A DNA stretch of 64,000 nt, taken from IMG/VR virus record IMGVR_UViG_3300027983_002389. One strand, written 5' to 3'. Shown in pieces: positions 3,290-58,495 of this stretch. Both the position numbers and the translations under genes were made by a program. The stretch is from a virus (lineage: Duplodnaviria; Caudoviricetes). Every line of letters starts with the position of its first letter. The stretch's first letter is position 1. The notes below the pieces were generated by a model that was not told where the DNA came from, made no database searches, and saw only the letters and a list, made by a program, of their open reading frames with translations.

Positions 3290-3460
3290 CAAAAGAAAAA
3301 TTTGCCGGAAACCTGAAGTTGACTTTACAAGGATGGAAAGTCGTGGTAGAATGAATGACACAACGCTGACGGAACCCGATAACGAATCAAAAGAAAAATT
3401 TGCCGGAAACCTGAAGTTGACTTTACAAGGATGGAAAGTCGTGGTAGAATGAATGACACA
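3290..3460 (+). promoter_or_regulatory. duplicated sigma70-like promoter (73-bp direct repeat)
   Basis: 3290-3362 = 3388-3460; each has TTTACA-17-TAGAAT with TG extended -10 (3324-3352, 3422-3450). Confidence 0.8.
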
Positions 3461-3461
3461 T

Positions 3462-3551
3462 GGCGGGGTAGCTCAGTCCGTTAGAGCATTGTGAATAGGG
3501 ACCGAAAGGTTTACTAACATAAGGTCGGAGGTTAAAATCCTTCCCCTGCCA
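3462..3551 (+). ncRNA. tRNA-like RNA with hairpin insertion in the anticodon loop
   Basis: Acceptor GGCGGGG/CCCTGCC-A, D and T arms present; anticodon stem TTGTG/CATAA encloses 24 nt containing GACC-GAAA-GGTT. Confidence 0.7.
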
Positions 3552-3555
3552 CTTA

Positions 3556-3852
3556 TGTCCTGCGATGAGCAGGAACAGATGGTGATTGTGGCCCCAACTC
3601 TCGCAAGAGAAGGGGGCTGGTTCAACACAGTCTAAGAATATAGTGACCCGACTCCAATAGAGGCATGTGCATAGTCTGAACAACGAAGCATGTGCTGATC
3701 CGGGTAGGTTGCTTCGGCGACCAAACACTGTATTTGATATTGGAGCCATCGAACGCAAACGACGGTTTGAACCCGTCAAGAACTTGTGAGTCAAATGCCG
3801 TCAGGACTACATTTGCAAAACGAACGTCTTGGCAATTATTTGTTGACTTGCA
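3556..3852 (+). ncRNA. putative structured non-coding RNA
   Basis: No credible ORF; hairpins TCTC-GCAA-GAGA and GGTTGC-TTCG-GCGACC; closing GATGGT/GCCATC. Confidence 0.45.
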
Positions 3853-3857
3853 TTTAT

Positions 3858-3978
3858 GGGTTGGTAGCTCAATGGCCTGTTTACAGGGAGGCAGATTATA
3901 TTGATCGTAAGGTCAGTGTAATCACTTCAGAGCGCCGTAGTAATACGGAGGTAGCTGGTTCGATTCCAGCCCGGCCCA
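3858..3978 (+). ncRNA. anticodon-less tRNA-like RNA (GUAA tetraloop, D-loop hairpin insert)
   Basis: GGGTTGG/CCGGCCC-A; D stem GCTC/GAGC with long insert; CCGTA-GTAA-TACGG; GCTGG-TTCGATT-CCAGC. Confidence 0.75.
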
Positions 3979-3982
3979 CTAT

Positions 3983-4184
3983 GGGGAAGTATTAGAATCC
4001 AACACAGAGCCGTTGGAGTGGAAAAGCAGTCTAGGTTCACGGAGCAATCCGCATGTGAATGTTAATGGGGCAACTTACCGCTCATTCTAGCGAGGCCAAC
4101 TCATAAACATGAACCAAGAGGGGCGACTCTCGAATGACTGCCGAGAATACTTCGGTGATGCTGGTTCGAGTCCAGCCTTCCCCA
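3983..4184 (+). ncRNA. about 200-nt RNA with tRNA-like acceptor stem and T arm
   Basis: GGGGAAG/CTTCCCC-A; GCTGG-TTCGAGT-CCAGC; large internal region. Confidence 0.65.
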
Positions 4185-4188
4185 CTAC

Positions 4189-4299
4189 GCAGTGGTAGCT
4201 CAAATAGAACCGTTTTACAGGTAGTGGCAACATTACCTGCATTTGGTAGAGCCTTCCGTAAGGAAGAGGTTGAAGGTGCGAGTCCTTCCCACTGCACCA
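4189..4299 (+). ncRNA. anticodon-less tRNA-like RNA with encoded CCA
   Basis: GCAGTGG/CCACTGC-ACCA; D-loop insert CAGGTAGTG-GCAA-CATTACCTG; CTTCC-GTAA-GGAAG. Confidence 0.75.
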
Positions 4300-4300
4300 T

Positions 4301-4430
4301 GTCGGGGTAGTAGAACGGAATGTACAACTAGGATCACCACATTAAGCCGTAAGGCTTTCATTGGCTCCAATGACTGTACAGAGAATGCCACAGTAATGTG
4401 GAGATGCAGGTTCGATTCCTGCCCCCGGCA
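4301..4430 (+). ncRNA. tRNA-like RNA with multibranch domain replacing the anticodon loop
   Basis: GTCGGGG/CCCCGGC-A; CCACATTA/TAATGTGG; T arm GCAGG-TTCGATT-CCTGC; decayed duplicate of the 3' part at about 4455-4610. Confidence 0.65.
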
Positions 4431-4608
4431 CTTAAATTTAACATTTAACATTTAACATTAAAGCCGCAAGGCTTTCGTTGATTCCAATGACTGTACAGAG
4501 AATGTGTACCCGAGTTCTGGCTAAGACGTTATGGCTGCTTGTCAGCGGGATTATCATCTTCATCAGCAACCCCACAGTAATGTGGAGATGCAGGTTCGAT
4601 CCCCCCGG

Positions 4609-4670
4609 CATTCAACATTCAACATTCAACATTCAACATTCAACATTCAACATTCAACATTCAACATTCA
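4609..4670 (+). repeat. (CATTCAA)n, about 9 copies
   Basis: Direct reading; related (ATTTAAC)n at 4436-4459. Confidence 0.95.
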
Positions 4671-6134: not shown

Positions 6135-6193
6135 AGCGGGTTGGAGGCAAGGCTCATAACCTTGAGACACTGGTTCGAGTCCAGTACCCGCCA
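6135..6193 (+). pseudogene. tRNA-Met(CAT) lacking the D arm
   Basis: CAAGG-CTCATAA-CCTTG, T arm and acceptor intact; D arm absent compared with the copy at 6221. Confidence 0.7.
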
Positions 6194-6220
6194 CTAGGTC
6201 GAAAGACCTTGAAACAATGA

Positions 6221-6294
6221 CGTAGGGTGGAGCAGTTTGGTAGCTCGCAAGGCTCATAACCTTGAGGCCGCAGGTTCAAATCCTGCCCCTACCA
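6221..6294 (+). tRNA. tRNA-Met(CAT), initiator-like C1:C72 mismatch
   Basis: Full cloverleaf, loop CTCATAA. Confidence 0.85.
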
Positions 6295-6295
6295 C

Positions 6296-6324
6296 TTTAC
6301 AAGTCGAAAGACTTGTGGTATAAT
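6296..6324 (+). promoter_or_regulatory. sigma70-like promoter of the leader and tRNA array
   Basis: TTTACA-17-TATAAT with TGG extension. Confidence 0.8.
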
Positions 6325-6340
6325 ACTGAAGTTCGATTAA

Positions 6341-6410
6341 CAACACAACACAACACAACACAACACAACACAACACAACACAACACAACACAACACAACA
6401 CAACACAACA
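6341..6410 (+). repeat. (CAACA)x14 in the 5' leader
   Basis: Direct reading. Confidence 0.95.
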
Positions 6411-6435
6411 CGGCTCGTTGCCGTAATCAGGAGAC

Positions 6436-6570
6436 ATGACAATGTTCGTTCAAATCACCAATATCGGTCGCTGGCATAATGGGCAACAAGTCCAGCCGCA
6501 GACAAAGTGCGCCCCCGCAGTGCGCACTTTCGTCGCCAATAAAGGTAATGAAGATACATTGCCTTCCTGA
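6436..6570 (+). CDS. putative 44-aa leader peptide
   Basis: AGGAGA SD, ATG to TGA; MTMFVQITNIGRWHNGQQVQPQTKCAPAVRTFVANKGNEDTLPS; followed by alternative hairpins and a terminator. Confidence 0.6.
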   Translation: MTMFVQITNIGRWHNGQQVQPQTKCAPAVRTFVANKGNEDTLPS

Positions 6571-6630
6571 CCGAACCATACAAGTTCGGCTCAGGATACC
6601 TGAGTCGGACTGAAACAATAAAGTTTCAGC

Positions 6631-6667
6631 AAAAACCCACTCAGGTAAAAACCTGAGTGGGTTTTTT
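6631..6667 (+). terminator. intrinsic terminator / attenuator
   Basis: AAAAACCCACTCAGG-TAAAAA-CCTGAGTGGGTTTTTT. Confidence 0.85.
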
Positions 6668-6680
6668 GTTGGATTTTTAT

Positions 6681-6755
6681 TGCCGGGGGTTCTGTGCTGG
6701 TACGGAAACTTGACTCTGAATCAAGATGACGTAGGTTCGATTCCTACCCCGGCAG
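6681..6755 (+). tRNA. tRNA-Gln(CTG)
   Basis: Cloverleaf, loop CTCTGAA. Confidence 0.8.
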
Positions 6756-6851
6756 CTTGGTTGAAACGACTTTTTGGAGAATGATGATGCTGACACACCG
6801 ATATAAACAGATTCGCTGAGAGGGACGTGTTGCCCTACGGGGCCACAGCAA

Positions 6852-6934
6852 GCGCTCGATGCTGAATTGGTTGCAGCTCCAGACTTTTAATCTGGTTCCG
6901 AAAGGACGTGTGGGTTCGAGTCCCACCGGGCGCA
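6852..6934 (+). tRNA. tRNA-Lys(TTT) with long variable arm
   Basis: Loop CTTTTAA; variable arm TTCC-GAAA-GGA. Confidence 0.75.
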
Positions 6935-6984
6935 TTATATTGGCTTTTATCAAAAGTTTTTGTTAAAAGCTGCATAGATAGTGT

Positions 6985-7479
6985 ATGAAAAAATGCACTA
7001 TTTGTAAGTTGGAAAAGAAGGAAGCTGAGTATAGTAAAAACAGATGTCGAAATGATGGTCTTCAAAACGTATGCAAAAATTGTAATGCACTGCGTTCAAG
7101 ACAGTATTATCTTGAAAAAACCGACGAGCATAGAGAGACAACAAAACTCCGTCGTAATAAGAAACGCCTAGAGCTAAAAAAGAAAATTGATGAATTAAGG
7201 GCGTTGTGTGGGTGTGCGAAATGTGGAGAACAGGATTATGTGTGTATTGATTTTCATCATACTAATCCCGAAGAAAAAGATTTCAATGTATCAATGTCTA
7301 CATCTTATGAGTGGCCTTGGTCCAAAGTTTTAGAGGAAGTATTGAAGTGCGTTTGTCTTTGTGCAAGTTGTCATCGAAAACTGCACGCCGGAAGGTTTGT
7401 GATTGAACCTAGTATGCTTTGTCAGATTGCATTAGAGACAAAAGGTTATGAAACTGCAAGATGTGACGGGAATGAGTGA
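6985..7479 (+). CDS. HNH endonuclease
   Basis: CxxC zinc motifs, IDFHH...KC..LCASCHR.LH. Confidence 0.85.
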   Translation: MKKCTICKLEKKEAEYSKNRCRNDGLQNVCKNCNALRSRQYYLEKTDEHRETTKLRRNKKRLELKKKIDELRALCGCAKCGEQDYVCIDFHHTNPEEKDFNVSMSTSYEWPWSKVLEEVLKCVCLCASCHRKLHAGRFVIEPSMLCQIALETKGYETARCDGNE

Positions 7480-7867
7480 CGCTGATCCGATTCATCGTTA
7501 CTTAGGGATGGTGGATAAATTCCTTGGGGATCACGATTGGTCTGACACCTATCGTAAACTCCTACAGGGCGAATTGATTGAGGCGATGTGGTTATGCCTC
7601 GGTCATCCAGTCCAATATCCAATAGTTGAAGATTATTGCCTCGATAACTTCGAGGAATATCTGAAACAAAAAGGCGAACCTGTAATCGCCGAAATTGTCT
7701 ACAAGTTGAGGCGACGAAAAGGGGAAGAAGGAATTGATAACCACGGTGTTCGAGTTGTTGTCATGTGGCTTGTTGCCAATATGGATGACCTGAAGGCAAG
7801 ATATTTGGAGGAAAGAAATCACCATCGGAAAATAACAGCCGATTGGGGTCCAAGTATGGTGATGTGA
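7448..7867 (+). CDS. hypothetical protein
   Basis: ORF with SD AAAGG. Confidence 0.6.
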   Translation: MKLQDVTGMSDADPIHRYLGMVDKFLGDHDWSDTYRKLLQGELIEAMWLCLGHPVQYPIVEDYCLDNFEEYLKQKGEPVIAEIVYKLRRRKGEEGIDNHGVRVVVMWLVANMDDLKARYLEERNHHRKITADWGPSMVM

Positions 7868-7872
7868 AATAT

Positions 7873-7962
7873 TTTCCGGTACGCTAATTGGTAAGCGGCG
7901 AAGCTGTTAACTTCGTGCAATCCGTCTCGCACGGTATGAAGGTTCGAGTCCTTCCTGGGGAG
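7873..7962 (+). tRNA. tRNA-Asn(GTT) with long variable arm
   Basis: CGAAG-CTGTTAA-CTTCG; T arm GAAGG-TTCGAGT-CCTTC. Confidence 0.7.
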
Positions 7963-7987
7963 CTTGTTCCCGATAGGGAATAAAAAA

Positions 7988-8049
7988 TCCCGTTCGGGAA
8001 TAAATGGTGTTCATCAGCAATGATTTACATGATTTATTCCCGAACGGGA
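7988..8049. repeat. 18-bp perfect inverted repeat
   Basis: TCCCGTTCGGGAATAAAT (7988-8005) / ATTTATTCCCGAACGGGA (8032-8049). Confidence 0.85.
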
Positions 8050-8053
8050 ATGA

Positions 8054-8127
8054 CGGGGTGTGGGCTAAAGGTGAGCCGCCTGATTTGGGATCAGGACATC
8101 GAGTGAGTTCGATTCTCACCACCCCGA
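8054..8127 (+). tRNA. tRNA-Pro(TGG)
   Basis: Cloverleaf, loop TTTGGGA. Confidence 0.85.
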
Positions 8128-8163
8128 CTGATTTTGTTCTTTGACAATTTGGTTGCCAATTAT

Positions 8164-8235
8164 GGCCTGTTAGACTTCGGGTGAGGTCGTCTGCTTCTCA
8201 GGCAGAATAGGTGGGTTTGACTCCCACACAGGTCA
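8164..8235 (+). tRNA. tRNA-Glu(CTC)
   Basis: Loop TTCTCAG. Confidence 0.75.
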
Positions 8236-8242
8236 TTTATAT

Positions 8243-8313
8243 GGGGCGCTGGTATAACGGGATTACGTCTGCTTTGCAAGCAGATTATCGGGGTTCGATT
8301 CCCCGGCGCTCCA
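8243..8313 (+). tRNA. tRNA-Ala(TGC)
   Basis: G3:U70, loop TTTGCAA. Confidence 0.9.
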
Positions 8314-8321
8314 CTGAATTT

Positions 8322-8395
8322 CGGCATATGTTGTAGTGGTTTCTGCAAGCCGTCCTGATAAGACGGAAGTTCTGGTTCAATTCCAGGTATGCCGA
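8322..8395 (+). tRNA. tRNA-Ile(GAT)
   Basis: Loop CTGATAA. Confidence 0.85.
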
Positions 8396-8473
8396 CTGAA
8401 TTATGGAATTTATGGTGTAAAAAATAAAGACTTGCCGCACAGCAAAGAGTCTTGGATGGTACAAAATGATTAT

Positions 8474-8545
8474 AGGGACGTGGTGCAAAGGCTAACATGG
8501 CAGTCTCCAAAACTGTTGATCTCGGTTCGAGTCCGAGCGTCCCTG
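8474..8545 (+). tRNA. tRNA-Trp(CCA)
   Basis: Loop CTCCAAA, discriminator G. Confidence 0.85.
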
Positions 8546-8567
8546 CTGATTGGTTCTCGACAGTCAT

Positions 8568-8640
8568 TCCCTTGTAGCTCAATTGGTAGAGCGGCACGCT
8601 GTTAACGTGAAGGTTCTAGGTTCGAGTCCTAGCGAGGGAG
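8568..8640 (+). tRNA. tRNA-Asn(GTT)
   Basis: Canonical cloverleaf. Confidence 0.9.
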
Positions 8641-8660
8641 CTAGTTTGAAGTTTTTATAT

Positions 8661-8736
8661 TGCCGGGTATTCGGTGTTGGTATCCGTTCTCTGTCTTTGA
8701 AGCAGAAGGTCGCTGGTTCGATTCCAGCCCCGGCAG
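8661..8736 (+). tRNA. tRNA-Gln(TTG)
   Basis: Loop CTTTGAA. Confidence 0.75.
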
Positions 8737-8765
8737 CTTGAGTGGTGACTCTATAGTGTTGTTGA

Positions 8766-8836
8766 TACTCTATAGTGTAATGGTAGCACACAACACTTTG
8801 ACTGTTGTAGTCATGGTTCGAGTCCATGTAGAGTAA
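8766..8836 (+). tRNA. tRNA-Gln(TTG)
   Basis: Loop CTTTGAC. Confidence 0.85.
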
Positions 8837-8839
8837 TTT

Positions 8840-9091
8840 GAGGGTAGTAGTGTGAATAGCCGACTGAGGCATCTTCACAAAAGTTGAAGGAAGTGCAAAG
8901 CTAAAACTGCAAGCAACAATTGCAAAAGCTATAAAAACCGTGAGTTAGGGGCAGGGCCTAAACAGGCTTGTAGACAATAACTTTGCACAGAGATCAATGA
9001 GTAGTGTTTTGAAGTAGGTTGGTAGGCAGCACAGAGGCATAAGCATTTGCAATTGGAGCCTTTGGTTTAGGTTCGAGTCCTAACGCCCTCG
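8840..9091 (+). ncRNA. about 250-nt RNA with tRNA-like ends
   Basis: GAGGGT/GCCCTC-G; TTAGG-TTCGAGT-CCTAA; internal GTGCAAAG/CTTTGCAC. Confidence 0.6.
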
Positions 9092-9119
9092 CTTGTTTGT
9101 TTGATGATTGTTGATTTAC

Positions 9120-9192
9120 GGTTCCGTGGTGTAGTGGCACTGCATACCTCCCTGTCACGGAGAAGGTGCGAGTTCGATTCTCGTCGGGACCG
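9120..9192 (+). tRNA. tRNA-Asp(GTC)
   Basis: Loop CTGTCAC. Confidence 0.85.
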
Positions 9193-9194
9193 CT

Positions 9195-9266
9195 GTGATT
9201 GAAGCCAAACGGTGCGGCGTCTCTTTGTGAAAGAGATAATAGTGGGTTCGACTCCCATCAATCACC
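9195..9266 (+). tRNA. tRNA-His(GTG), no encoded G-1
   Basis: Loop TTGTGAA, C73. Confidence 0.8.
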
Positions 9267-9277
9267 TGTTAGTTTTT

Positions 9278-9350
9278 GGGCGTGGAGTTCGGTCGGTAGA
9301 ACATCCCCCTGTCACGGGGAAGGTTGCGGGTTCAACTCCCGTCACGCTCG
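9278..9350 (+). tRNA. tRNA-Asp(GTC)
   Basis: Loop CTGTCAC. Confidence 0.85.
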
Positions 9351-9359
9351 CTGTTGAAT

Positions 9360-9431
9360 GCCTTCGTGGTATAGTGGTATTGCGCTTGCTTGGTAAGCAA
9401 GAAATTCTGGGTTCGATTCCCAGCGATGGCT
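9360..9431 (+). tRNA. tRNA-Thr(GGT)
   Basis: Loop TTGGTAA. Confidence 0.8.
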
Positions 9432-9434
9432 CTT

Positions 9435-9507
9435 GATCTTGAAGCTCAAATGGATGAGCGACCACTTGTCTAGTGGAAGGTTGTAGGTTCGACTCCTACT
9501 GAGATTG
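9435..9507 (+). tRNA. tRNA-Asp(GTC)
   Basis: Loop TTGTCTA. Confidence 0.7.
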
Positions 9508-9571
9508 CTATGTTCATTAGGTCTGCTAACTTGATGAACAGAAATGTTGCAGCGAATGGCAGTTCGTATGA

Positions 9572-9648
9572 GGGTGTGATCGTCTAGGTTGGTCTAGGAC
9601 ACCCGCCGTTTGAGGCGGGAGACATGGGTTCAAATCCCATCACATCTT
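9572..9648 (+). tRNA. tRNA of undetermined type (Glu-like body, 8-nt loop CGTTTGAG)
   Basis: Good acceptor, D and T arms; abnormal anticodon loop. Confidence 0.6.
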
Positions 9649-9659
9649 CGCAACTTTGT

Positions 9660-9732
9660 GTGTATGTGGCCGAGCGGCAAAGGCGCTAGTTTTCCAAACT
9701 GGTTTAGGTGGGTTCAACTCCCTCCATACACT
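9660..9732 (+). tRNA. tRNA-Gly(TCC)
   Basis: Loop TTTCCAA, U73. Confidence 0.8.
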
Positions 9733-9740
9733 CAATTTTT

Positions 9741-9819
9741 GACCGTGGAAACGAAAGCTCCGTGGTGGAGCATCAGACTGCAAATCTGATGTTAAGAGGT
9801 TCGACTCCTCCTGCGGCCT
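9741..9819 (+). tRNA. atypical tRNA-Cys(GCA), apparent 8/4 fold
   Basis: TCAGA-CTGCAAA-TCTGA; 4-bp T stem; 8-nt connector AAACGAAA; U73. Confidence 0.6.
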
Positions 9820-9821
9820 CT

Positions 9822-9891
9822 GGCCATGTTGATGTAACGGTAGCAGGAAACCTTAAATGGTAATTTGAGTGGTTCGACTCCACAGTGGTCA
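9822..9891 (+). pseudogene. degenerate tRNA
   Basis: T loop TTCGACT and partial acceptor; anticodon arm broken. Confidence 0.5.
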
Positions 9892-9901
9892 TTTATTTTA
9901 T

Positions 9902-9972
9902 AGCTCGTCCTGTGGATTCAGGCGTTGGGTCTACGAAACCCGATTGGATAGGTTCGATTCCTTCACGAGCTA
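9902..9972 (+). tRNA. atypical tRNA-Arg(ACG)
   Basis: Loop CTACGAA; no nt 8-9 linker; 6-bp anticodon stem. Confidence 0.75.
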
Positions 9973-9980
9973 CTTGATTT

Positions 9981-10051
9981 GCCCGGTTGATGAAATGGTA
10001 TCGTGTCTGCATTACAAGCAGAATTCGGGGGTTCGATTCCCTCACCGGGTA
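9981..10051 (+). tRNA. tRNA-Val(TAC)
   Basis: Loop ATTACAA. Confidence 0.8.
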
Positions 10052-10063
10052 CTGAGTATTTTT

Positions 10064-10135
10064 GGCCCATTCGTCTACTGGCTAGGACCGCTGTTTTTCA
10101 GGCAGCAGAAGACGGATCGAAACCGTCATGGGTCA
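10064..10135 (+). tRNA. tRNA-Glu(TTC)
   Basis: Loop TTTTCAG. Confidence 0.75.
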
Positions 10136-10138
10136 CTT

Positions 10139-10289
10139 AGTTATTGGATCAATTAGTGTAACGGCAGCACGCCTCCGTGGAGGGGGAAGAGTGGTTCGAT
10201 TCCAATACCAACAACTAAATGAGACAAATTAGTGTAACGGTAGCACGCCTCTCACCAAGGGGAAGATTGGTTCGATTCCAATACTCATT
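10139..10289 (+). ncRNA. tandem pair of tRNA-like RNAs with 5-nt anticodon loops
   Basis: Near-identical D and T arms; loops GTGGA (10177-10181) and CACCA (10253-10257); bulged acceptor stems. Confidence 0.55.
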
Positions 10290-10292
10290 TAT

Positions 10293-10374
10293 GCCGGGTT
10301 CGCATAGCGGCGATTGCACAGGTTTTGTAAACCTGCGGAGTTATCCCTCGTGGGTTCGAGTCCCACACCCGGCT
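10293..10374 (+). tRNA. tRNA-Thr(TGT) with long variable region
   Basis: Loop TTTGTAA. Confidence 0.75.
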
Positions 10375-10403
10375 CTGAACATTTAACCTTTTGGGGAAAT
10401 ACT

Positions 10404-11127: not shown

Positions 11128-11184
11128 TGGCAGCATACTTGGCTCTTAACCAAGATGGTTCCGGTTCAAGTCCGGGTGGACGCA
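11112..11184 (+). tRNA. tRNA-Lys(CTT), overlaps the trpS stop
   Basis: Loop CTCTTAA. Confidence 0.85.
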
Positions 11185-11189
11185 CTTGA

Positions 11190-11320: not shown

Positions 11321-11329
11321 CTTATTTAT

Positions 11330-11401
11330 GGCGTGTTCGACTTCTGGTGAGGTCATCTGCCTTTCAAGCAGATTAGATGAGATCGAAACTCATACACGTC
11401 A
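11330..11401 (+). tRNA. tRNA-Glu(TTC)
   Basis: Loop CTTTCAA. Confidence 0.8.
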
Positions 11402-12086: not shown

Positions 12087-12093
12087 TTTATAT

Positions 12094-51100: not shown

Positions 51101-51117
51101 ATGCCTGTGGATTAAAC

Positions 51118-51160
51118 AAAAGCCTTTGGCGTGTGGCGACATGCGACAAAGGCTTTTTTT
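51118..51160 (+). terminator. intrinsic terminator
   Basis: AAAAGCCTTTG...CAAAGGCTTTTTTT. Confidence 0.8.
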
Positions 51161-51565
51161 GTCGGAGTCACAAATGTTCAATGTTGAGTACATGACGAAC
51201 AATTACCGGACATTAGAAGCACTACGACATGAGTTTGGCATCAAGCATGGTTTTTGTTACAAGCGGGCGCAACATTACAAAGACTGCATTGTCATCCATT
51301 GGAAGCATCGAAAAAAGCGATCCGACAAGAGCTTTATTGACTATGAACGCATCAGCGACTACGTTGCTGTGGCTCATGCGGTGTGTGACAAATACGAACT
51401 GCGGGACGATAGGCATCCCTTGTTAGATCCCGATTTGATGTTGGCTAAGATCGGCATCTATTGTTTTATTTCCTGGCATCGTACTTGGGCAATTCCCAAT
51501 GTCAACAAAGACGTGCAAGATTTCGTCTTGAGTAAACTGCCCGATTGGGCTGAGGTAAGACACAA

Positions 51566-52789
51566 ATGATTCGTCCAATCCCACTCGCTCATGGCGTCGG
51601 GTTTTTCTCAATGGATCGTTTGCCGCAATATGCTGGCAAGTATCGTGAGGAAAATGTGGGTCGCTATTGGAACTACTATGTCACGCCAGAGTGCCAAGAG
51701 TGGCCAGAGGCGGTGACGTACAAAGGTCCGTATGTGATTGACGGGTTTTCCCCCAATCTCAATAAGAGCCTGCACGTCGGGCATCTACGTCAATTGGCTT
51801 TGGCAAAGTCTTTGGAGAGCATTATGAACCATGCTCAACAAAATCCTCACGCCAAGTTTGTATCCCTATTGGGCGCATCTCAGGGAGTTTTTCAATACGC
51901 TACTGAGCAACTGAATGGTTGGTTCGACTTCTTGAACTTCCATCCTGAATTGCACTATGACGTATTGATGCCACGAGATCAGGAGATCGTTCCTCGTTAC
52001 AAAACCAAGGTGCCAGTCTCTATCTCAACTGACTTTAACGGTAAGCCTTTTGAACATGAGGAAGAGTGTGAAGTGTGGGCCGGTCCCAAAGGGCCTGTGA
52101 TCGTCGTTCGTTGGGATGGTCGTCCTTTGTATGCCTTTCAGGACATTGCCTTCTCGAAGGTGGTGGGTCCAACTCACTACATCACTGGCACGGAGCAGCA
52201 GGAGCATTTTGCCAACCTGGGGCTTGGCGATAAACATCTGCCTATGGGTCTTGTATTGGGTGCTGACGGCAAGAAGATGAAGTCTCGTACTGGCGATAGT
52301 GTCACAGCTAAAGAAGTATTGGATCAGATTGTTTCTCAGCTTGATCCAACAGATGAACCGAACAAGCTGGCGTGGAATGTATTGGCGTGGAATTTTCTTC
52401 ACGTCGCTCGTTCCAAGTCGGTGAAGTATACCCCGGAAGAATGGACAAAGTCGGATGCTCCGGGCATGTATATTTCGTATACTTATGCTCGCATTCAATC
52501 GGCTTTGGCTGGAGAGTCTTTTGAAGAAGGCGATCTGACACAATCAGATGCAGATTTGTTGGGCTTGGCTCGTCAGCACGCCTACGCCTTGCAGCGTAGC
52601 ATTGATTCTCTCGATCCGGCAATGTTGGCAAATTACGCTTACGATCTGGCATCCAAGCTGGGTACGGCATATCATGGGGAAAAGATCAAGGGTGGACGCC
52701 CAGGCTTTAAGAACGCCTTGATGCAAGCGGTGTGGCATCTTCGTTTGTGTATGCACCAACTTGGCATGTTTCCTTTGGAGAAGATTTAA
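51566..52789 (+). CDS. argS: reduced arginyl-tRNA synthetase
   Basis: FSPNLNK.LHVGHLR, EQ..HF, KMKSRTG, Y..YTYARI.S, DALR-like C-terminus. Confidence 0.85.
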   Translation: MIRPIPLAHGVGFFSMDRLPQYAGKYREENVGRYWNYYVTPECQEWPEAVTYKGPYVIDGFSPNLNKSLHVGHLRQLALAKSLESIMNHAQQNPHAKFVSLLGASQGVFQYATEQLNGWFDFLNFHPELHYDVLMPRDQEIVPRYKTKVPVSISTDFNGKPFEHEEECEVWAGPKGPVIVVRWDGRPLYAFQDIAFSKVVGPTHYITGTEQQEHFANLGLGDKHLPMGLVLGADGKKMKSRTGDSVTAKEVLDQIVSQLDPTDEPNKLAWNVLAWNFLHVARSKSVKYTPEEWTKSDAPGMYISYTYARIQSALAGESFEEGDLTQSDADLLGLARQHAYALQRSIDSLDPAMLANYAYDLASKLGTAYHGEKIKGGRPGFKNALMQAVWHLRLCMHQLGMFPLEKI

Positions 52790-54222: not shown

Positions 54223-54297
54223 TTTCCGCCCTTTACAAAAACTTTTTTTCATGCTATGATAGATAAGTTCAGCAAACCTTTTTTTGGAGAAACTACT

Positions 54298-55165
54298 GTG
54301 AGTAAGAGCAAGACTAAGCACAAAATGTACGCAACTGGCAGCACTGGCAGCACTGGCAGCACTGGCAGCACTGGCAGCACTGGCAGCACTGGCAGCACTG
54401 GCAACAACTCGGCGTCGGGCTGTCTTTAGCAATCCAACCACTCTCCTCCTCGAACTTCATGGCGGGGAAGGCGGCGAAGATTCTAAGTTATTCGTTGCCG
54501 ATTTACTTGAAACCTATCTCAAATATGCTTCCATCAACGGCCTTAAATACGAAGTATTGACCCAAGAGCATGGCCACGCCATTGCCAAAGTCATGGGCAA
54601 GGGCGTTTGGAAAGCATTTCAAAACGAGCCGGGTAAGCACGTCGTGCAACGTGTACCTCCCACTGAGCGAAGTGGTCGTCGGCAAACATCCATCATTACG
54701 GTTGCTGTGATGCCGTTGCCTCCTGAGAACACTCAGGAGCCGCTTGATGAAAAAGACCTGAATATTATCTGCCAGACGGGCAAGCAAGGCGCAGGTGGAC
54801 AAAACGTCAACAAGGTGGCGTCTGCTGTTCGCATGAAGCATAAGCCAACTGGAATGATGGTCTTCATTAACGGACGAGATCAAAAGCAAAATCTTGATGA
54901 GGCTTTGCGAATTCTGACCTTCAAAGTCAATGAGCAAAAACGACTCAAGGTCGAGGGTGATTACAATCAGTCTCGGAGAACTCAAATGTTGAGTGGTGGA
55001 GACAGAATTGGCGGTAGAGGCGATAAAGTTCGCACCTACAACTTCATTCAGTCTCGTGTGGTCGATCACAGGCTTGGTCGCAAGACCTCGAACGTCAAAG
55101 AATTCATGAAAGGCAATTTTGCCCTTCTGTTTGATGGGGATACCGCAGGTCAGGGCGAAGAGTAA
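54298..55165 (+). CDS. RF1-type class I release factor, expressed via putative +1 frameshift at 54424-54430
   Basis: LE...GEGGEDS.LF, VQRVPPTE..GRR.TS (PxT), GAGGQNVNK, KVRTYNF; GGAGA SD and GTG 54298 are in a different frame. Confidence 0.85.
54334..54403 (+). repeat. (ACTGGCAGC)n, about 7.8 copies, in-frame TGS repeat
   Basis: Direct reading. Confidence 0.95.
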
Positions 55166-55213
55166 TTTGTAAAATTTCGTGGTAGCTTAATTTTAGCTTA
55201 ATTGAGCCGATCT

Positions 55214-55250
55214 AATGAGCCGATCTACGGATAGATCGGCTCATTTTGTT
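55214..55250 (+). terminator. intrinsic terminator
   Basis: AATGAGCCGATCTA-CGGA-TAGATCGGCTCATTTTGTT. Confidence 0.8.
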
Positions 55251-55262
55251 CCTATATAACAC

Positions 55263-56027
55263 ATGCTTAATTTCAAATCCTGGTTGGAAGGTTCTTTAAG
55301 GGACATTATTCAGCCCATTCAGCAATCTCCAAAACATCACGCAGAGGGTGATGTTTTTGTCCATACTCGCATGGTGCGTCAACAGCTTCAATCTGCTATT
55401 GCTTATTTTCAGCAATTGGCTGTGGACAAAGATTCAGTTTTTGGAAACTTAGACAGACAACTATCACCAGCAGATGTAAATCTATTGAGAATTGGAGCAT
55501 GGCTACACGATATTGGCAAAGCATCGGCGACGACAGATGATTCTGGTAAAATCCAAGCAATTGGACATGAACAGCCTGCTCATTTTGAGCCTATGATGAA
55601 AAAACTAGGCTCACCTTGGCAGCAGATGTATGAAAAGGCATCTGCTGAAGACAAAGAAGACTTGTGGTTCATAATCCAGCAACACATGAGCCTTCAGCCG
55701 CATTTTCCACGCAAATTTTTGCGTCAACTCCTGGATGCTACTGGTAAATTCAAAAATGATCGTCGAGTCAAATTATTGTTGATTTTAATCATGATGGACC
55801 AATCTGGCAGAATTAGTCTGGGAGGACTCAATGGCGATGCGGCCCTTCCTGAAATAGCTGGCAGGATGCGACAATCTGCGATGGACTTTCAATCTACAAT
55901 CAAACCACAGAAAGAAAAGTCATCTGATGATCCAACCACATTTGCCAATGATTTGATGACGAAGGGATTGGACCAAGGAACAATACGCAAGGCGTATTTT
56001 GGCAAGTTTGGACAAAACATGCAGTAA
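55263..56027 (+). CDS. HD-domain phosphohydrolase (type found in RNA end-healing / CCA enzymes)
   Basis: Q.P.HH.EGDV..HT.MV, WLHDIGK, GHE, HM, D..GR. Confidence 0.8.
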   Translation: MLNFKSWLEGSLRDIIQPIQQSPKHHAEGDVFVHTRMVRQQLQSAIAYFQQLAVDKDSVFGNLDRQLSPADVNLLRIGAWLHDIGKASATTDDSGKIQAIGHEQPAHFEPMMKKLGSPWQQMYEKASAEDKEDLWFIIQQHMSLQPHFPRKFLRQLLDATGKFKNDRRVKLLLILIMMDQSGRISLGGLNGDAALPEIAGRMRQSAMDFQSTIKPQKEKSSDDPTTFANDLMTKGLDQGTIRKAYFGKFGQNMQ

Positions 56028-56386
56028 CACACTCCTTTGATTTTACCAGCTTCAAAGGAGCATATTATGTGGTTAGAATTAGGCAAAGAACGACCGGGCG
56101 GTGTCCCTCAGAACAATCCACGAATTTGGGTCAACACAGACCATATTGTTCGTGTAGAATTTACCCAAGAAGGTCCAATGTTGACCGCTACGGTTATTTC
56201 AACGAAACCGGGTGGTTCAGATCGCACGATCTTCAAGGGCGACGATGCAGAGCGATTGAGACTGGCATTAAATGTTGAGTGCAATTGGAAGCCATTGCTC
56301 GACTATGAAATTCCAGCAGCCCCAGAATCAGTGCCGGTGGTTGTAGAAAAGAAGCCGAACAAAAAGACCAAGTAAGGGAATCGGAC

Positions 56387-57559
56387 ATGAACTGGTTGAG
56401 TACAATTCTGGCCTTGGGCGGTATTTTTTTCGGGGTTTGGGCCGTCTTCAAATACCTGATCTTGGTCGAGATCAGGTTGGACGCCAACACCTACAAGACT
56501 CTCTACGAGGTCTGCAAAGACGAAAAGAAGTTCCTCCTCCGTGAAGAGTTCGTCAGCGAGTCCAAGCCGCCAATCTTATTCGTAGCGATATGCGTATTCA
56601 AAGGCGTCCCGTTGTTCTACATCAAACACGAGGAGCGACTGCTGACGGCAGGCTGGTCGGGCAAGGATACCGTGACCACCGTGGTCTGCTTCCGGTGGTC
56701 GGCGGGCCGTCTGAAGGGGTACTTGCGGACCAAGCTGAAGGAACTCCAACTCGACAAGTTGGGCATCCCGGTCGAACTCATCACCCCCAACTTCACCGAC
56801 CGAATCGGCGTGTTGAAACGGATCACTCCACAACCCTACCTCGCTTCAGACGTGTGGCAAGACATCGACGTGGAAGTGGCGCAAGTGTTCGAGGGAAAGC
56901 GGGACAAGATGAGCGCCCTGCTTTATGGGCCTCCCGGCAACGGCAAGACTTCGTTTATCAAATATCTGGCGACTAAATATCGTAAGCCGATCAAGGTCAT
57001 TACCTTCGACCCGCAGTTCACAAACCACGACCTGATGTCGATTTTCTCTCAGATCACGCCGAACTGTATCGTTTTGTTCGAGGATTTCGACAACTACTTC
57101 AATGGACGGGAGTGCATCCTGGGTACGGGCAACACGGGGATTCGATTCACCTTCGACATCATCCTCAACGGCCTCGACGGAGTTTATACGACCTACGAAA
57201 ACGTCGTCTTCATCATGACAGTCAACGACATCGAGAAGGTCGATCCGGCCTTGAAAAATCGCCCCAGCCGGTTCAAGTACGTTCGCAAGTTCGACAACCC
57301 CGACGAAGGACTTCGAGGCCAGATTCTCGGCGATTGGGCCGAGGCCACCAACGGGTTGAACTTGGATCAACTATTGCGACTGCGTGAATTCAAGGAGAAT
57401 GACTTTGATCTCCCCGCCGCACTGAAGAAGCTGGAGAAGTCGATCAAGCACGAGGACATCGAAAAGGTGGCGTATCGCCGGTACGAGGAGCGGCTGCTTA
57501 CCGAGACTGAAGGCAGTCACGAGGACGACTGGAACTACGCCAAGAACCGACTTAAATAA
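56387..57559 (+). CDS. membrane-anchored AAA+ ATPase (BCS1-like)
   Basis: N-terminal TM, GPPGNGKT, FEDFD, LNGLDG, RPSRF. Confidence 0.85.
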   Translation: MNWLSTILALGGIFFGVWAVFKYLILVEIRLDANTYKTLYEVCKDEKKFLLREEFVSESKPPILFVAICVFKGVPLFYIKHEERLLTAGWSGKDTVTTVVCFRWSAGRLKGYLRTKLKELQLDKLGIPVELITPNFTDRIGVLKRITPQPYLASDVWQDIDVEVAQVFEGKRDKMSALLYGPPGNGKTSFIKYLATKYRKPIKVITFDPQFTNHDLMSIFSQITPNCIVLFEDFDNYFNGRECILGTGNTGIRFTFDIILNGLDGVYTTYENVVFIMTVNDIEKVDPALKNRPSRFKYVRKFDNPDEGLRGQILGDWAEATNGLNLDQLLRLREFKENDFDLPAALKKLEKSIKHEDIEKVAYRRYEERLLTETEGSHEDDWNYAKNRLK

Positions 57560-57568
57560 GGACGAACT

Positions 57569-58495
57569 ATGAGCAACGTAATCAAAGAGCTATACGACAA
57601 GGGGCTGACCAACCTGGGAGGACACCGTTGGATGCCGGATAATCTCCATTATGTGACCATGATGGGATCAGTCGCCTATGGAGTATCGAGCGACACGTCA
57701 GATGTAGACGTTTACTCGTTTTGTATTCCTAACAAGGAAGACTTATTTCCACATCTTCGTGGTGAGGTCGTAGGTTTTGGCGATGCAAAACATGCCAACA
57801 ACCGATTTACCAATTATCAAGAACACCACATTAAAGACGTTGGTGCCGAGAAAGAATACGATCTCAACATCTACAACATTGTTGACTTCTTTCAATTGGT
57901 AATGGAAAACAATCCCAATATGATTGACTCTCTGTTTACTCCTCAGTGGTGTGTATTGCACAGCACTAGAGTTGGTCAGATGGTCCGTGAAAAGAGGAAG
58001 ATTTTTCTTCATCTAGGAAGCTGGCACACTTTTAAGGGATACGCATATAATCAACTGAAGAAGTGTGGCTCTAAGAATAGAACCGGGAAACGTAAGCAAG
58101 TGGTAGACGAGATGGGCTTCGACCCTAAGTTTGCTTACCATATTGTGAGAAACCTGGGAGAAATCGAACAGATTCTCACTGAGGGCGATCTGGACCTTCA
58201 GCGAAACAGAGAGCAATTGAAAGCTATTCGCCGTGGGGATTGGTCGCTTGAACAAATCGAAGAATATTTTGAGAGGAAAGAAATTGAGTTAGAAACTCTG
58301 TATAATGAAAATAAAGCCGGTCTACCTTGGGGGCCTAAACATGATGGTCTGCAAGAGAAGGTTAAGCAACTTCTCTTTCAGTGCCTCGAAGAACACTACG
58401 GGTCGCTTGACAAATGTATTGTCAATCCAGACGCCGCAGTGATGGCTCTCCGGGAGGTTGGCGATGTTCTCGCAAAGTACAGAAGCCTTCTATGA
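57569..58495 (+). CDS. Pol-beta-superfamily nucleotidyltransferase (RlaP/YcgL-like)
   Basis: GSVAYG.....SDVD, NPNMID.LF, F.GYA..QL, K..YH. Confidence 0.85.
   Translation: MSNVIKELYDKGLTNLGGHRWMPDNLHYVTMMGSVAYGVSSDTSDVDVYSFCIPNKEDLFPHLRGEVVGFGDAKHANNRFTNYQEHHIKDVGAEKEYDLNIYNIVDFFQLVMENNPNMIDSLFTPQWCVLHSTRVGQMVREKRKIFLHLGSWHTFKGYAYNQLKKCGSKNRTGKRKQVVDEMGFDPKFAYHIVRNLGEIEQILTEGDLDLQRNREQLKAIRRGDWSLEQIEEYFERKEIELETLYNENKAGLPWGPKHDGLQEKVKQLLFQCLEEHYGSLDKCIVNPDAAVMALREVGDVLAKYRSLL

What the first reader, a model, noticed from the sequence alone, without database searches (positions are those of the whole stretch)
3290..58495. Candidate self-sensing phage translation-rescue system
Seen in one region: about 50 tRNAs, many tRNA mimics, TrpRS/GluRS/MetRS/ArgRS, an RF, Pth2, ClpS, Ro60 with Y-like RNAs, an HD hydrolase and a Pol-beta nucleotidyltransferase. 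Three possible ribosome-speed sensors accompany them: two CUU-UNN frameshifts whose A-site codon matches the gene's function, and a leader-peptide attenuator. Known: many anti-phage defences cleave or deplete tRNA. Inference: the phage deploys back-up translation parts on demand when a particular step fails.
Basis: inference. Interest (0 to 1): 0.85.

Follow-up and report, generated by a model that had tools for sequence, protein, structure and literature searches.

The report
Phage TrpRS and RF1 frameshift switches
A huge freshwater phage carries many translation genes, and two of them (a mini tryptophanyl-tRNA synthetase and a truncated release factor 1) can only be made if the ribosome slips +1 at a prfB-like site whose waiting codon is the one that the gene's own product helps to decode; the switch is conserved in dozens of related phages, and I found no report of it for either gene type.

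Summary
The inventory is real: about 45 tRNA genes plus tRNA-like RNAs, TrpRS, a GluRS core, MetRS, short ArgRS, RF, Pth2, ClpS, Ro60, HD and RlaP.

Both CUU-UNN frame breaks are real and conserved.
- **TrpRS:** 26 distinct relatives (22 full-length ones form one clade) carry [GGUG or GGAGG]-NNN-CUU-UGG. None has an in-frame ATG. All 40 relatives without the site start at a plain ATG.
- **RF:** it is RF1-type and lacks domain 1. Twenty distinct huge-phage relatives carry CUU-stop, mostly followed by C, behind unrelated leaders. The stop is UGA in 14, UAG in 5 (including this window) and UAA in 1. Two more have an in-frame UGA.

The attenuator before tRNA-Gln is plausible, but only one close relative supports it.

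The "system" reading is not supported. The two switches do not travel together: ten RF-switch phages have no detectable TrpRS, and one TrpRS-switch phage has no RF. The 55-kb span is also interspersed with DNA-metabolism genes.

Best reading: two gene-autonomous, prfB-like feedback switches. Reviews state that neither an RF1 counterpart nor a used hungry-codon frameshift is known. This scan earlier noted CUU-UGG-C beside trpS in Saccharibacteria (e1-5263209).

The parts
3462..4610 (+). Cluster of tRNA-like RNAs. It includes one Rfam tRNA hit (3462-3551) and two anticodon-less mimics with a GUAA-capped arm (3858-3978, 4189-4299).
   Evidence: Rfam. Folds with z-scores of -5.8 and -4.3.
6135..32901 (+). 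tRNA gene array of about 45 genes, including tRNA-Trp(CCA) at 8474-8546. There is no Leu, Ser, Tyr, Cys or Phe tRNA.
   Evidence: ARAGORN. Rfam.
6296..6668 (+). Candidate leader-peptide attenuator upstream of tRNA-Gln(CUG). Promoter 6296-6324; (ACAAC)14 repeat; SD 6429-6434; 44-codon ORF 6436-6570. Segment 1 is 6565-6576, segment 2 is 6584-6596, segment 3 is 6598-6608. The terminator arms are 6639-6646 and 6651-6661, followed by a T-run.
   Evidence: Sequence. Alignment to G002 shows an in-frame indel in the ORF, 3 compensatory pairs in the terminator and 2 in the 3:4 pairing. Fold energies are -53.7 and -44.2 kcal/mol.
10393..10439 (+). TrpRS recoding cassette. SD GGGGAA at 10393-10398; ORF0 at 10404-10439 (11 codons); SD-like GGTG at 10406-10409; slip site CTT TGG C at 10413-10419.
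10417..11127 (+). Mini TrpRS body in the +1 frame (236 aa; HIGH and KMSKS present; C-terminal anticodon-binding part missing). The 3' end overlaps tRNA-Lys at 11112-11185.
   Evidence: Pfam PF00579. TIGR00233 scores 107 bits over profile positions 6-222 of 328. Family search.
14791..14914 (+). tRNA-shaped RNA with a large insert in place of the anticodon loop. It shares a core with the RNA that follows Ro60.
   Evidence: Rfam tRNA, 47 bits. Fold.
25746..26147 (+). ClpS-domain protein.
   Evidence: PF02617, E = 7.8e-18.
33201..34097 (+). GluRS catalytic core (298 aa) without an anticodon-binding domain. Ordinary ATG start.
   Evidence: PF00749. gltX_bact scores 271 bits, against 155 bits for GluQRS.
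36488..38372 (+). Ro60 (TROVE + vWA; 36488-38203) followed by a tRNA-like RNA with a 58-nt insert (38250-38372).
   Evidence: Pfam and NCBIfam Rsr. Rfam. Fold.
45747..47381 (+). MetRS (544 aa). Ordinary ATG start.
   Evidence: PF09334, E = 8.9e-84. TIGR00398 scores 391 bits.
49086..49877 (+). Stand-alone fragment resembling the gp23 N-terminus (49086-49418), followed by Pth2 (49473-49877).
   Evidence: PF07068 and PF01981.
50486..52789 (+). HNH endonuclease (50486-51100), an unassigned ORF, and a short ArgRS (51566-52789; 407 aa; HIGH present; no N-terminal domain). Ordinary ATG start.
54232..54430 (+). RF recoding cassette. Promoter 54232-54260; SD; ORF0 from GTG 54298 to TAG 54429, containing a 9-nt repeat in 7.8 copies (54334-54403); slip site CTT TAG C at 54424-54430.
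54428..55165 (+). RF1-type release factor body in the +1 frame (245 aa; PPT and GGQ present; no domain 1). Its own stop codon is TAA.
   Evidence: Pfam PCRF and RF-1. prfA scores 210 bits, prfB 129 and prfH 51; the match covers model positions 105-336 of 347.
55263..58495 (+). HD hydrolase (55263-56027), a 112-aa ORF, an AAA ATPase (56387-57559) and the RlaP Pol-beta nucleotidyltransferase (57569-58495). In close relatives the RF is followed directly by the 112-aa ORF and RlaP.

Best explanation
The window is part of a huge T4-like phage genome found in freshwater metagenomes. The longest contig on record that carries its called RF protein is about 460 kb. The region is dense in tRNA genes and in translation and RNA-repair genes.

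Two of these genes are each expressed through their own prfB-type programmed +1 ribosomal frameshift. A short ORF with a good Shine-Dalgarno (SD) sequence and start codon brings the ribosome to CUU in the P site. The next codon is slow to decode: UGG in the TrpRS gene, UAG in the RF1-type gene. While the A site waits, peptidyl-tRNA-Leu re-pairs from CUU to UUU. In the TrpRS cassette an SD-like GGUG or GGAGG element 3 nt upstream probably helps. Translation then continues in the +1 frame into the enzyme.

The waiting time depends on charged tRNA-Trp, or on release-factor activity. Each switch therefore makes more product when that product's activity is short, and less when it is plentiful. That is negative feedback, as in prfB.

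What is shown: the anatomy, the need for a +1 shift, and its conservation. What is inferred: that the shift responds to Trp-tRNA or RF supply, and the feedback logic.

The two switches are gene-autonomous and were acquired and kept independently. They are not parts of one coordinated rescue system. The leader-ORF/terminator element before tRNA-Gln is probably a translation-coupled attenuator, but it is weakly documented.
For: TrpRS.
- 26 distinct loci carry the cassette. CTT TGG is invariant in all 26, and the next base is C in 25 of 26. GGTG (23) or GGAGG (3) lies exactly 3 nt upstream. An ATG lies 4-7 codons upstream in frame 0 in most. Frame 0 stops within 0-13 codons, most often one codon after UGG.
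- None of the 26 has an in-frame ATG. The Leu codon where gene callers put a start varies: TTG 9, CTT 5, CTG 4, CTC 4, TTA 2, CTA 1 and ATT 1. It is therefore an ordinary sense codon, not a start.
- All 40 distinct relatives without the cassette have a plain ATG.
- The cassette maps to one clade of 22 rows in the ML tree, so it needs only one change.
- The Gly codon created by the site is not conserved in the ATG-start relatives. GGC is therefore held by the cassette, not by the protein.

RF.
- 20 distinct loci have an ORF0 ending CTT + stop, followed by C in 18 of 20, with the conserved RF body in the +1 frame. The leaders are unrelated in sequence and in length.
- Many relatives show AGGAG-NNN-CTT TGA C, as prfB does.
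- The startless stretch is conserved at protein level, including the GEGGxDSK motif.
- Independent contigs from 4 studies show no indel at the site.
- All three stop codons are ordinary terminators in this phage: TAA 36, TGA 26, TAG 13.

Established knowledge.
- prfB autoregulation works by CUU-UGA-C with an upstream SD-like element (PMC5009743, PMC12421855).

Autonomy. No other cassette was found in 915 kb of this lineage.
Against: - There is no expression or protein data. Frameshift efficiency and its response to Trp-tRNA or RF levels are not measured.
- In 14 of 20 RF relatives the gate is UGA, yet the body keeps the RF1-type QR[VI]PPTE motif. For those relatives the loop is not self-sensing unless the truncated factor reads UGA.
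- The stop identity changes several times on the tree. In prfB it is 98.6% TGA.
- The RF cassette of this window has only a weak SD-like element (GGG).
- In 9 of 26 TrpRS loci a TTG exists at the Leu codon and could add some direct initiation.
- The close relative G002 carries two tRNA(CUA) genes. UAG decoding in this lineage may therefore be more complicated than termination alone.
Confidence: 0.65

Rival explanations
1. The whole 55-kb set (tRNAs, mimics, aaRSs, RF, Pth2, ClpS, Ro60/Y RNA, HD, RlaP) is one self-sensing translation-rescue system. It is deployed on demand against host defences that cleave or deplete tRNA, and the three sensors act as its triggers.
For: All the named parts are present. 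Two sensors are conserved with their genes. RlaP lies next to the RF in several lineages. tRNA-like RNAs sit beside Ro60. Phage tRNAs countering anticodon nucleases is established knowledge; I did not re-check it here.
Against: The sensors are not co-conserved. Each gates only its own gene. No further cassette occurs in other translation genes. Unrelated DNA-metabolism genes are interspersed. The HD and AAA genes are missing from the same place in close relatives. Nothing ties the tRNAs, Pth2, ClpS or Ro60 to conditional expression.
Confidence: 0.12
2. The frameshifts are real but act as fixed throttles. They hold TrpRS and RF synthesis at a low constant fraction of leader translation and carry no meaningful feedback.
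For: The site needs a shift in every member. RF overexpression is harmful in bacteria (PMC12421855). The RF stop identity is labile, as expected if any slow codon will do.
Against: UGG is invariant in 26 of 26 TrpRS cassettes, and the A-site codon is always a stop in the RF cassettes. Given CTT-T, 16 A-site codons are possible. The chance of drawing the cognate class in both genes is about 1%. Competition between decoding and slippage at this kind of site is established.
Confidence: 0.15
3. TrpRS and RF1 belong to a genetic-code-switch module, like the one proposed for TGA-recoded Jade phages (suppressor tRNA + TrpRS + RF1). The cassettes would time that switch rather than rescue translation.
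For: Borges et al. describe such a module. The close relative G002 has two tRNA(CUA) genes. The mini TrpRS lacks most of its anticodon-binding domain. Two RF relatives have an in-frame UGA instead of a frameshift.
Against: No suppressor tRNA is found in the window. The G002 suppressors read UAG, which RF1 would oppose, and one of them is Lys-like, not Trp-like. No excess of in-frame TAG or TGA is seen. All three stops are used as terminators. TrpRS and RF rarely co-occur.
Confidence: 0.06
4. The breaks are artefacts or decay: assembly indels, pseudogenes, or genes that simply start at a non-canonical codon downstream of a meaningless upstream ORF.
For: Gene callers did annotate internal or TTG starts.
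Against: The site is identical in 26 (TrpRS) and 20 (RF) independent diverged assemblies. Contigs of four studies show no indel. The startless parts carry essential motifs (HIGH; GEGGxDSK). Synonymous variation at the supposed start codon argues against initiation there.
Confidence: 0.02

Closest known systems
prfB (RF2) autoregulatory +1 programmed frameshift, CUU-UGA-C with an SD-like stimulator 3 nt upstream
   Same: Same slip codon (CUU to UUU) and the same C after the A-site codon. Same short ORF0 / long +1 ORF layout. Same SD-like element at 3-nt spacing (GGUG or GGAGG in TrpRS; AGGAG in many RF relatives). The RF cassette also has a stop codon in the A site of a release-factor gene.
   Different: The gene is RF1-type, not RF2. 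The shift lies just before domain 2 of a factor that lacks domain 1, not at codon 26 of a full-length factor. The stop can be UAG, which was never seen in 8,164 prfB motifs (PMC12421855). In TrpRS the A-site codon is a sense codon. The carrier is a phage.
Hungry-codon and rare-codon +1 frameshifting (E. coli starvation studies; yeast Ty1 CUU-AGG-C)
   Same: [quoted passage not shown] The dependence on aminoacyl-tRNA supply is established (PMC5009743).
   Different: Here the slow codon is the cognate codon of the synthetase that the shift produces, which closes a feedback loop. The 2016 review states that no used example of starvation-type frameshifting is known.
Giant-virus (Mimivirus/Megavirus) release-factor gene that needs a frameshift and a readthrough (PMC3521657)
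   Same: A virus-encoded termination factor whose synthesis needs recoding at stop codons.
   Different: That is a eukaryote-type factor in amoeba viruses, with different sites and mechanism. I read only the abstract and its citation in PMC5009743.
T-box and leader-peptide attenuation control of aaRS and amino-acid operons
   Same: Both sense the supply of charged tRNA and raise synthetase expression when it falls. The 6296-6668 element has a leader ORF, alternative helices and a terminator, like trp-type attenuators.
   Different: The TrpRS switch acts during elongation by changing frame, not at transcription. The candidate attenuator has no tandem regulatory codons inside segment 1, and it precedes tRNA genes.
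Translation-gene repertoires of huge phages (Al-Shayeb et al. 2020, PMC7162821)
   Same: Dozens of tRNAs, several aaRSs and RF1/RF2 in phages larger than 200 kb. The general idea is that they sustain or redirect translation.
   Different: That paper's main text does not contain the word 'frameshift'. The truncated, core-only form of the enzymes is not discussed in the passages I read.
PrfH (release factor H) of RtcB RNA-repair operons
   Same: It lacks the N-terminal domain 1, and it is associated with RNA-repair genes. Here RlaP lies downstream.
   Different: Sequence places the phage factor with RF1 (210 bits) and far from PrfH (51 bits; cutoff 167). No RtcB was found in the window.

Membership tests
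prfB-type programmed +1 frameshift cassette | Slippery P-site codon CUU followed by U, so that tRNA-Leu can re-pair on UUU | tested here: met
   CTTT is invariant in 26 of 26 TrpRS loci and 20 of 20 RF loci. Window sites: 10413-10416 and 54424-54427.
prfB-type programmed +1 frameshift cassette | Slow-to-decode A-site codon followed by C | tested here: met
   TrpRS: UGG in 26 of 26, next base C in 25 of 26 distinct loci. RF: a stop codon in 20 of 20, followed by C in 18 of 20.
prfB-type programmed +1 frameshift cassette | SD-like stimulator about 3 nt upstream of CUU | tested here: inconclusive
   Met for TrpRS: GGTG in 23 and GGAGG in 3, at exactly 3 nt. Met in many RF relatives, which carry AGGAG. 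The window's RF site has only GGGC, and some members of its clade have none.
prfB-type programmed +1 frameshift cassette | Short ORF0 with its own start; long +1 ORF with conserved sequence but no start of its own | tested here: met
   The startless stretch is 30 codons in TrpRS and 85 codons in the RF.
prfB-type programmed +1 frameshift cassette | Frameshift product observed, and efficiency inversely related to product activity | not testable with these tools
   No RNA run holding the stretch is listed, and no proteomics are available.
Release factor 1 (prfA) | GGQ catalytic motif and a PxT-type recognition loop | tested here: met
   GGQ and QRVPPTE are present. The best model is prfA.
Release factor 1 (prfA) | Full-length four-domain protein that reaches the equivalog score | tested here: not met
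   The match covers model positions 105-336 of 347 only. It scores 210 bits against a cutoff of 400. Domain 1 is absent in the whole phage family.
Tryptophanyl-tRNA synthetase (trpS) | Class I HIGH and KMSKS motifs, with TrpRS as the best model | tested here: met
   HLGH and KMSKS are present. TIGR00233 gives E = 9e-31, against E = 3e-11 for TyrRS.
Tryptophanyl-tRNA synthetase (trpS) | Complete enzyme with a C-terminal anticodon-binding domain, reaching the equivalog score | tested here: not met
   107 bits against a cutoff of 176.75. The match covers profile positions 6-222 of 328. The family is 200-270 aa long.
Leader-peptide transcription attenuator (trp type) | Leader ORF, mutually exclusive helices and an intrinsic terminator | tested here: met
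   There are compensatory changes in both the 4:5 and the 3:4 pairings, but only against one relative that is about 90% identical.
Leader-peptide transcription attenuator (trp type) | Clustered regulatory codons placed so that stalling selects the antiterminator | tested here: inconclusive
   A QQVQPQ stretch lies 65-85 nt before segment 1, and the next gene is tRNA-Gln. There is no tandem run inside segment 1. No distant relatives were found.
Ro60 / Y-RNA module | TROVE + vWA protein with an adjacent Y RNA | tested here: inconclusive
   The protein part is met. The adjacent RNA matches the tRNA model with a 58-nt insert, not YrlA or YrlB. The one YrlB hit in the window, at 3783-3854, has E = 0.54.
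Phage code-change module (suppressor tRNA + TrpRS + RF1) | A suppressor tRNA for the reassigned stop, and in-frame stops in late genes | tested here: not met
   No suppressor tRNA occurs in the window. The relative G002 has CUA suppressors, not UCA ones. No excess of in-frame stops was found.

The most novel reading that the evidence does not exclude
Huge phages have turned the prfB frameshift cassette into a general demand sensor by swapping the A-site codon. With UGG it makes a tryptophanyl-tRNA synthetase only when charged tRNA-Trp runs short. That would be the first aaRS controlled by frameshifting at its cognate codon, and the first used 'hungry-codon' shift. With UAG, UAA or UGA it makes a domain-1-less RF1-type factor only when termination is slow. 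That would be the first RF1-type gene with prfB-like control, including the UAG form never seen in bacteria. If the truncated factor proves to read UGA as well, it would also be a new kind of release factor.
Probability: 0.45. Interest if true: 0.9.

Novelty: new variant of a known kind. Interest (0 to 1): 0.8.

Why it matters
The prfB frameshift is the textbook case of a gene that measures its own product's activity on the ribosome.

- A 2025 survey of more than 12,000 bacterial genomes found no such control for RF1, and no UAG in the motif.
- The 2016 recoding review states that no RF1/UAG counterpart is known, and that no natural use of starvation-type frameshifting is known.
- These phage genes supply both. 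They do so in compact cassettes of 40-130 nt that can be moved into reporters.
- The switches give a direct, testable read-out of charged tRNA-Trp and of termination capacity in vivo.
- They show how phages regulate borrowed translation enzymes without transcription factors.
- They raise the question of what a release factor without domain 1 does.
- Annotation is affected. Gene callers truncate or mis-start every member of both families.

Tried and rejected
- Megablast of 22.5 kb against the INPHARED phage collection gave no match.
- No whole genome is held for the window.
- ArgRS, MetRS and GluRS were checked for frame breaks and have ordinary ATG starts. The ORF before ArgRS has no family match.
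- I scanned both strands of the window, G002 (340 kb) and G001 (511 kb) for further CTT-T cassettes. The other candidates lack an SD-like element and encode a CsrA-domain ORF, a gp15-like protein or proteins of unknown function. I treated them as chance.
- I tested for stop-codon reassignment in two ways: ORF coverage under altered codes, and same-frame ORF pairs split by one stop. Neither gave a signal for TAG or TGA, but both tests are crude.
- I looked for a link between the stop used in the RF cassette and the recognition loop of the factor. There is none.
- I searched for more relatives of the attenuator leader. The peptide was too short for the locus finder. A degenerate DNA pattern found only G002.
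- Rfam found no Y RNA next to Ro60. The only YrlB hit in the window, at 3783-3854, has E = 0.54.
- No RNA holder is listed for the RF stretch, so expression was not examined.
- Contigs break inside the 9-nt repeat of the RF leader, so its copy number is uncertain.
- I did not use structure prediction or complex prediction, because no claim here depends on them.

Full report
**What the region is.**
Nearly all genes lie on the + strand. ARAGORN finds 40 tRNAs and Rfam 42. The union is about 45, all between 3462 and 32901.
- TrpRS, ending at 11127
- a 298-aa GluRS catalytic core, 33201-34097
- Ro60, 36488-38203
- MetRS, 45747-47381
- Pth2, 49473-49877
- a 407-aa ArgRS, 51566-52789
- an RF, ending at 55165
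- an HD protein, an AAA ATPase and the RlaP Pol-beta nucleotidyltransferase, 55263-58495
- ClpS, 25746-26147

The same span also holds gp32, RNase H, an M16 peptidase, a DenV-type glycosylase, a deoxyribosyltransferase, methyltransferases, a radical-SAM protein, PD-(D/E)XK and HNH nucleases, and a GNAT. It is a gene-dense phage region enriched in translation genes, not a dedicated operon.

Relatives are IMG/VR contigs of 340 kb and 511 kb. One of them carries a T4 gp15-like gene. The window's called RF protein is on record on a 462.6-kb contig. The exact RF region is assembled in freshwater and estuary metagenomes of four studies.

**tRNA-like RNAs.**
Two RNAs (3858-3978 and 4189-4299) fold into cloverleaves. 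Their anticodon arm is a 5-bp stem capped by GUAA. Directly after Ro60 (38250-38372), and again at 14791-14914, lie RNAs that match the tRNA model with a 58-nt insert in place of the anticodon loop. These observations hold. I did not pursue what the RNAs do.

**The TrpRS frame break.**
A good SD (10393-10398) precedes ATG 10404, and the reading frame runs ATG GTG CGT CTT TGG C. This frame stops at 10437-10439. The TrpRS frame, including the HIGH motif, is +1. It has no ATG, GTG or TTG before 10477.

A metagenome scan gave 80 loci, and IMG/VR gave several more. After removing duplicates, 26 loci carry the site:
- CTT TGG is invariant.
- The next base is C in 25.
- GGTG (23) or GGAGG (3) lies exactly 3 nt upstream.
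- The leader is mostly 4-7 codons long.
- Frame 0 most often stops one codon after UGG.

Information content is 2 bits at all six site positions and 1.3-1.8 bits at the SD-like element. It is low in the flanks.

None of the 26 has an in-frame ATG. Gene callers placed starts at a Leu codon that varies among TTG, CTT, CTG, CTC, TTA, CTA and ATT. That is the pattern of a sense codon, not of a start.

All 40 distinct relatives without the site begin with a plain ATG 4-12 codons before the G-x-R-P-T-G block. In an ML tree the cassette marks a single clade of 22 rows. So it arose once and has been kept through divergence down to about 50% protein identity. One member reads GGAGG-TAT-CTT-TGG-C. That differs from the E. 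coli prfB site (recalled from memory) essentially by UGG in place of UGA.

**The RF frame break.**
A promoter and SD precede GTG 54298. The leader ends TGT CTT TAG C (54421-54430). The RF body (the GEGGxDSK block, then PPT, then GGQ) is in the +1 frame and is startless for 85 codons.

NCBIfam places the body with RF1: 210 bits, against 129 for RF2 and 51 for PrfH. The match covers only positions 105-336 of the model, so domain 1 is missing. A large family of such short RF1-type proteins exists on contigs of up to 673 kb.

I examined 22 distinct loci:
- 20 have an ORF0 ending CTT + stop, followed by C in 18, with the RF body in +1.
- The leaders share neither sequence nor length.
- Many relatives show AGGAG-NNN-CTT TGA C.
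- The stop is TGA in 14, TAG in 5 (including this window) and TAA in 1.
- Two loci instead have a short in-frame leader ending AGT TGA.

The stop identity changes several times on the tree. The window's own subclade uses only TAG or TAA. The recognition loop stays QR[VI]PPTE whatever the stop.

Contigs of runs from four studies cover the site with no difference and no gap. This excludes an assembly indel.

**How the two switches most likely work.**
The anatomy is that of prfB: CUU in the P site, a slow codon in the A site, C next, and in most cases an SD-like element 3 nt upstream. For prfB it is established that slow recognition of UGA lets tRNA-Leu slip to UUU. [quoted passage not shown]

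Applied here, TrpRS is made when Trp-tRNA(Trp) is scarce. The RF1-type factor is made when termination at the gate codon is slow. In this window the gate is UAG, which only RF1-type factors read, so the loop can be truly autoregulatory.

Given CTT-T, 16 A-site codons are possible. Drawing the single Trp codon in the TrpRS gene and a stop in the RF gene has a joint chance of about 1%. The invariance of UGG across 26 lineages argues for selection on that codon. The Gly codon that the site creates is absent from ATG-start relatives.

The response itself is inferred, not shown.

**The attenuator.**
Between tRNA-Met and tRNA-Gln(CUG) lie a promoter, an (ACAAC)14 repeat, an SD and a 44-codon ORF (6436-6570). 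Its stop codon sits in the first of five pairing segments. A strong terminator follows.
- The minimum-energy fold pairs segments 2:3 and 4:5 (the terminator), at -53.7 kcal/mol.
- The alternative pairs 1:2 and 3:4, which sequesters the terminator arm, at -44.2 kcal/mol.
- The one available relative (G002, about 90% identical) keeps the ORF with an in-frame 3-nt insertion.
- That relative shows three compensatory pairs in 4:5 and two in 3:4. It lacks the repeat.
- No more distant copy was found.

The design is coherent: slow translation would favour read-through into the tRNAs. The support is thin, and there is no tandem regulatory codon run inside segment 1.

**Is it one system?**
- Ten other phage records with the RF switch gave no match to the TrpRS query. 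Five of them are at least 96% complete.
- The complete 511-kb relative has the TrpRS switch but no RF, and only 4 tRNAs.
- A two-strand scan of the window, G002 and G001 found no other convincing cassette.
- The HD and AAA genes next to the RF are missing from that place in close relatives. There the RF is followed by a small ORF and RlaP.

Each switch therefore belongs to its gene.

**Open points.**
- Fourteen relatives gate an RF1-type factor with UGA. Either the truncated factor reads UGA, or those phages sense host RF2.
- The close relative G002 carries two tRNA(CUA) genes, one of them Lys-like.
- My tests found no stop-codon reassignment, and all three stops are used as terminators. Those tests are crude.

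**Comparison with the literature.**
- Al-Shayeb et al. list tRNAs, aaRSs and RF1/RF2 in huge phages. Their main text does not contain the word 'frameshift'.
- The 2016 recoding review says the RF1/UAG counterpart of prfB control 'is also unknown'. It also says no examples of used starvation-type frameshifting are known.
- A 2025 survey found no programmed frameshift in prfA, and no TAG among 8,164 prfB motifs.
- My full-text searches found no report of either phage switch.
- This scan earlier noted an invariant CUU-UGG-C in a gene beside trpS in Saccharibacteria. I did not re-test it.

**Verdict.**
The core is new as a variant of a known mechanism: two conserved, gene-autonomous prfB-like switches. 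One has a sense codon as its sensor and one sits in an RF1-type gene. The 'translation-rescue system' framing goes beyond the evidence.

Noticed in passing
L013:1380-1560 and L021:1380-1560 (IMG/VR contigs of 572 kb and 123 kb): Two relatives of the phage RF have no frameshift. A short leader is joined in frame to the RF body through AGT TGA. This may be stop-codon readthrough, or it may reflect TGA reassignment. The recoding review says such a design was once hypothesised for release factors and had not been found in any sequenced RF2 gene.
   Followed up: partly
L170:720-870 (NCBI assembly contig, 220 kb): This RF gene seems to have two cassettes in series. The first is GGGGG-TGT-CTT-TAG-C. 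About 15 codons later, in the new frame, comes CTT-TGA-C. Two successive +1 shifts, at a UAG and then at a UGA, would be needed.
   Followed up: no
G002:C1:182011-182084 and 182708-182778 (340-kb close relative): Two tRNA genes with a CUA anticodon (amber suppressors). The first closely resembles the phage's tRNA-Lys(CUU). No clear TAG reassignment was detected in that genome.
   Followed up: partly
window:54334-54403: A perfect 9-nt tandem repeat (ACTGGCAGC, 7.8 copies) lies inside the RF leader ORF. It encodes (Thr-Gly-Ser)n and is absent from relatives. Public contigs break inside it, so the copy number is uncertain. Other perfect short repeats lie at 4609-4670, 4759-4807, 6340-6411 and 25748-25808.
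   Followed up: partly
window:33201-34097, 10417-11127, 51566-52789: Three of the four phage synthetases are cores without their usual tRNA-anticodon-binding or N-terminal domains: GluRS 298 aa, TrpRS about 240 aa, ArgRS 407 aa. All score below the NCBIfam equivalog cutoffs. This suggests relaxed or altered tRNA recognition.
   Followed up: partly
window:49086-49418: A 110-aa ORF matches only the first 53 positions of the T4 major capsid protein family (PF07068, E = 1e-10). It sits just upstream of Pth2.
   Followed up: no
window tRNA set and G002 tRNA set: The window has 40 tRNAs and G002 has 52. Neither set has any tRNA for Leu, Ser, Tyr, Cys or Phe. The tRNA-Leu that slips at CUU must therefore come from the host. 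tRNA-Trp(CCA) is phage-encoded (8474-8546).
   Followed up: partly
window:11112-11127: The last 16 nt of the TrpRS ORF overlap the 5' end of tRNA-Lys(CUU). Processing of the tRNA would therefore cut the TrpRS mRNA at its stop codon.
   Followed up: no
window:425-728: A 54-nt tandem repeat (5.6 copies, 96% identical) lies inside the first ORF (18-1457). That ORF has a weak GIY-YIG-like match.
   Followed up: no
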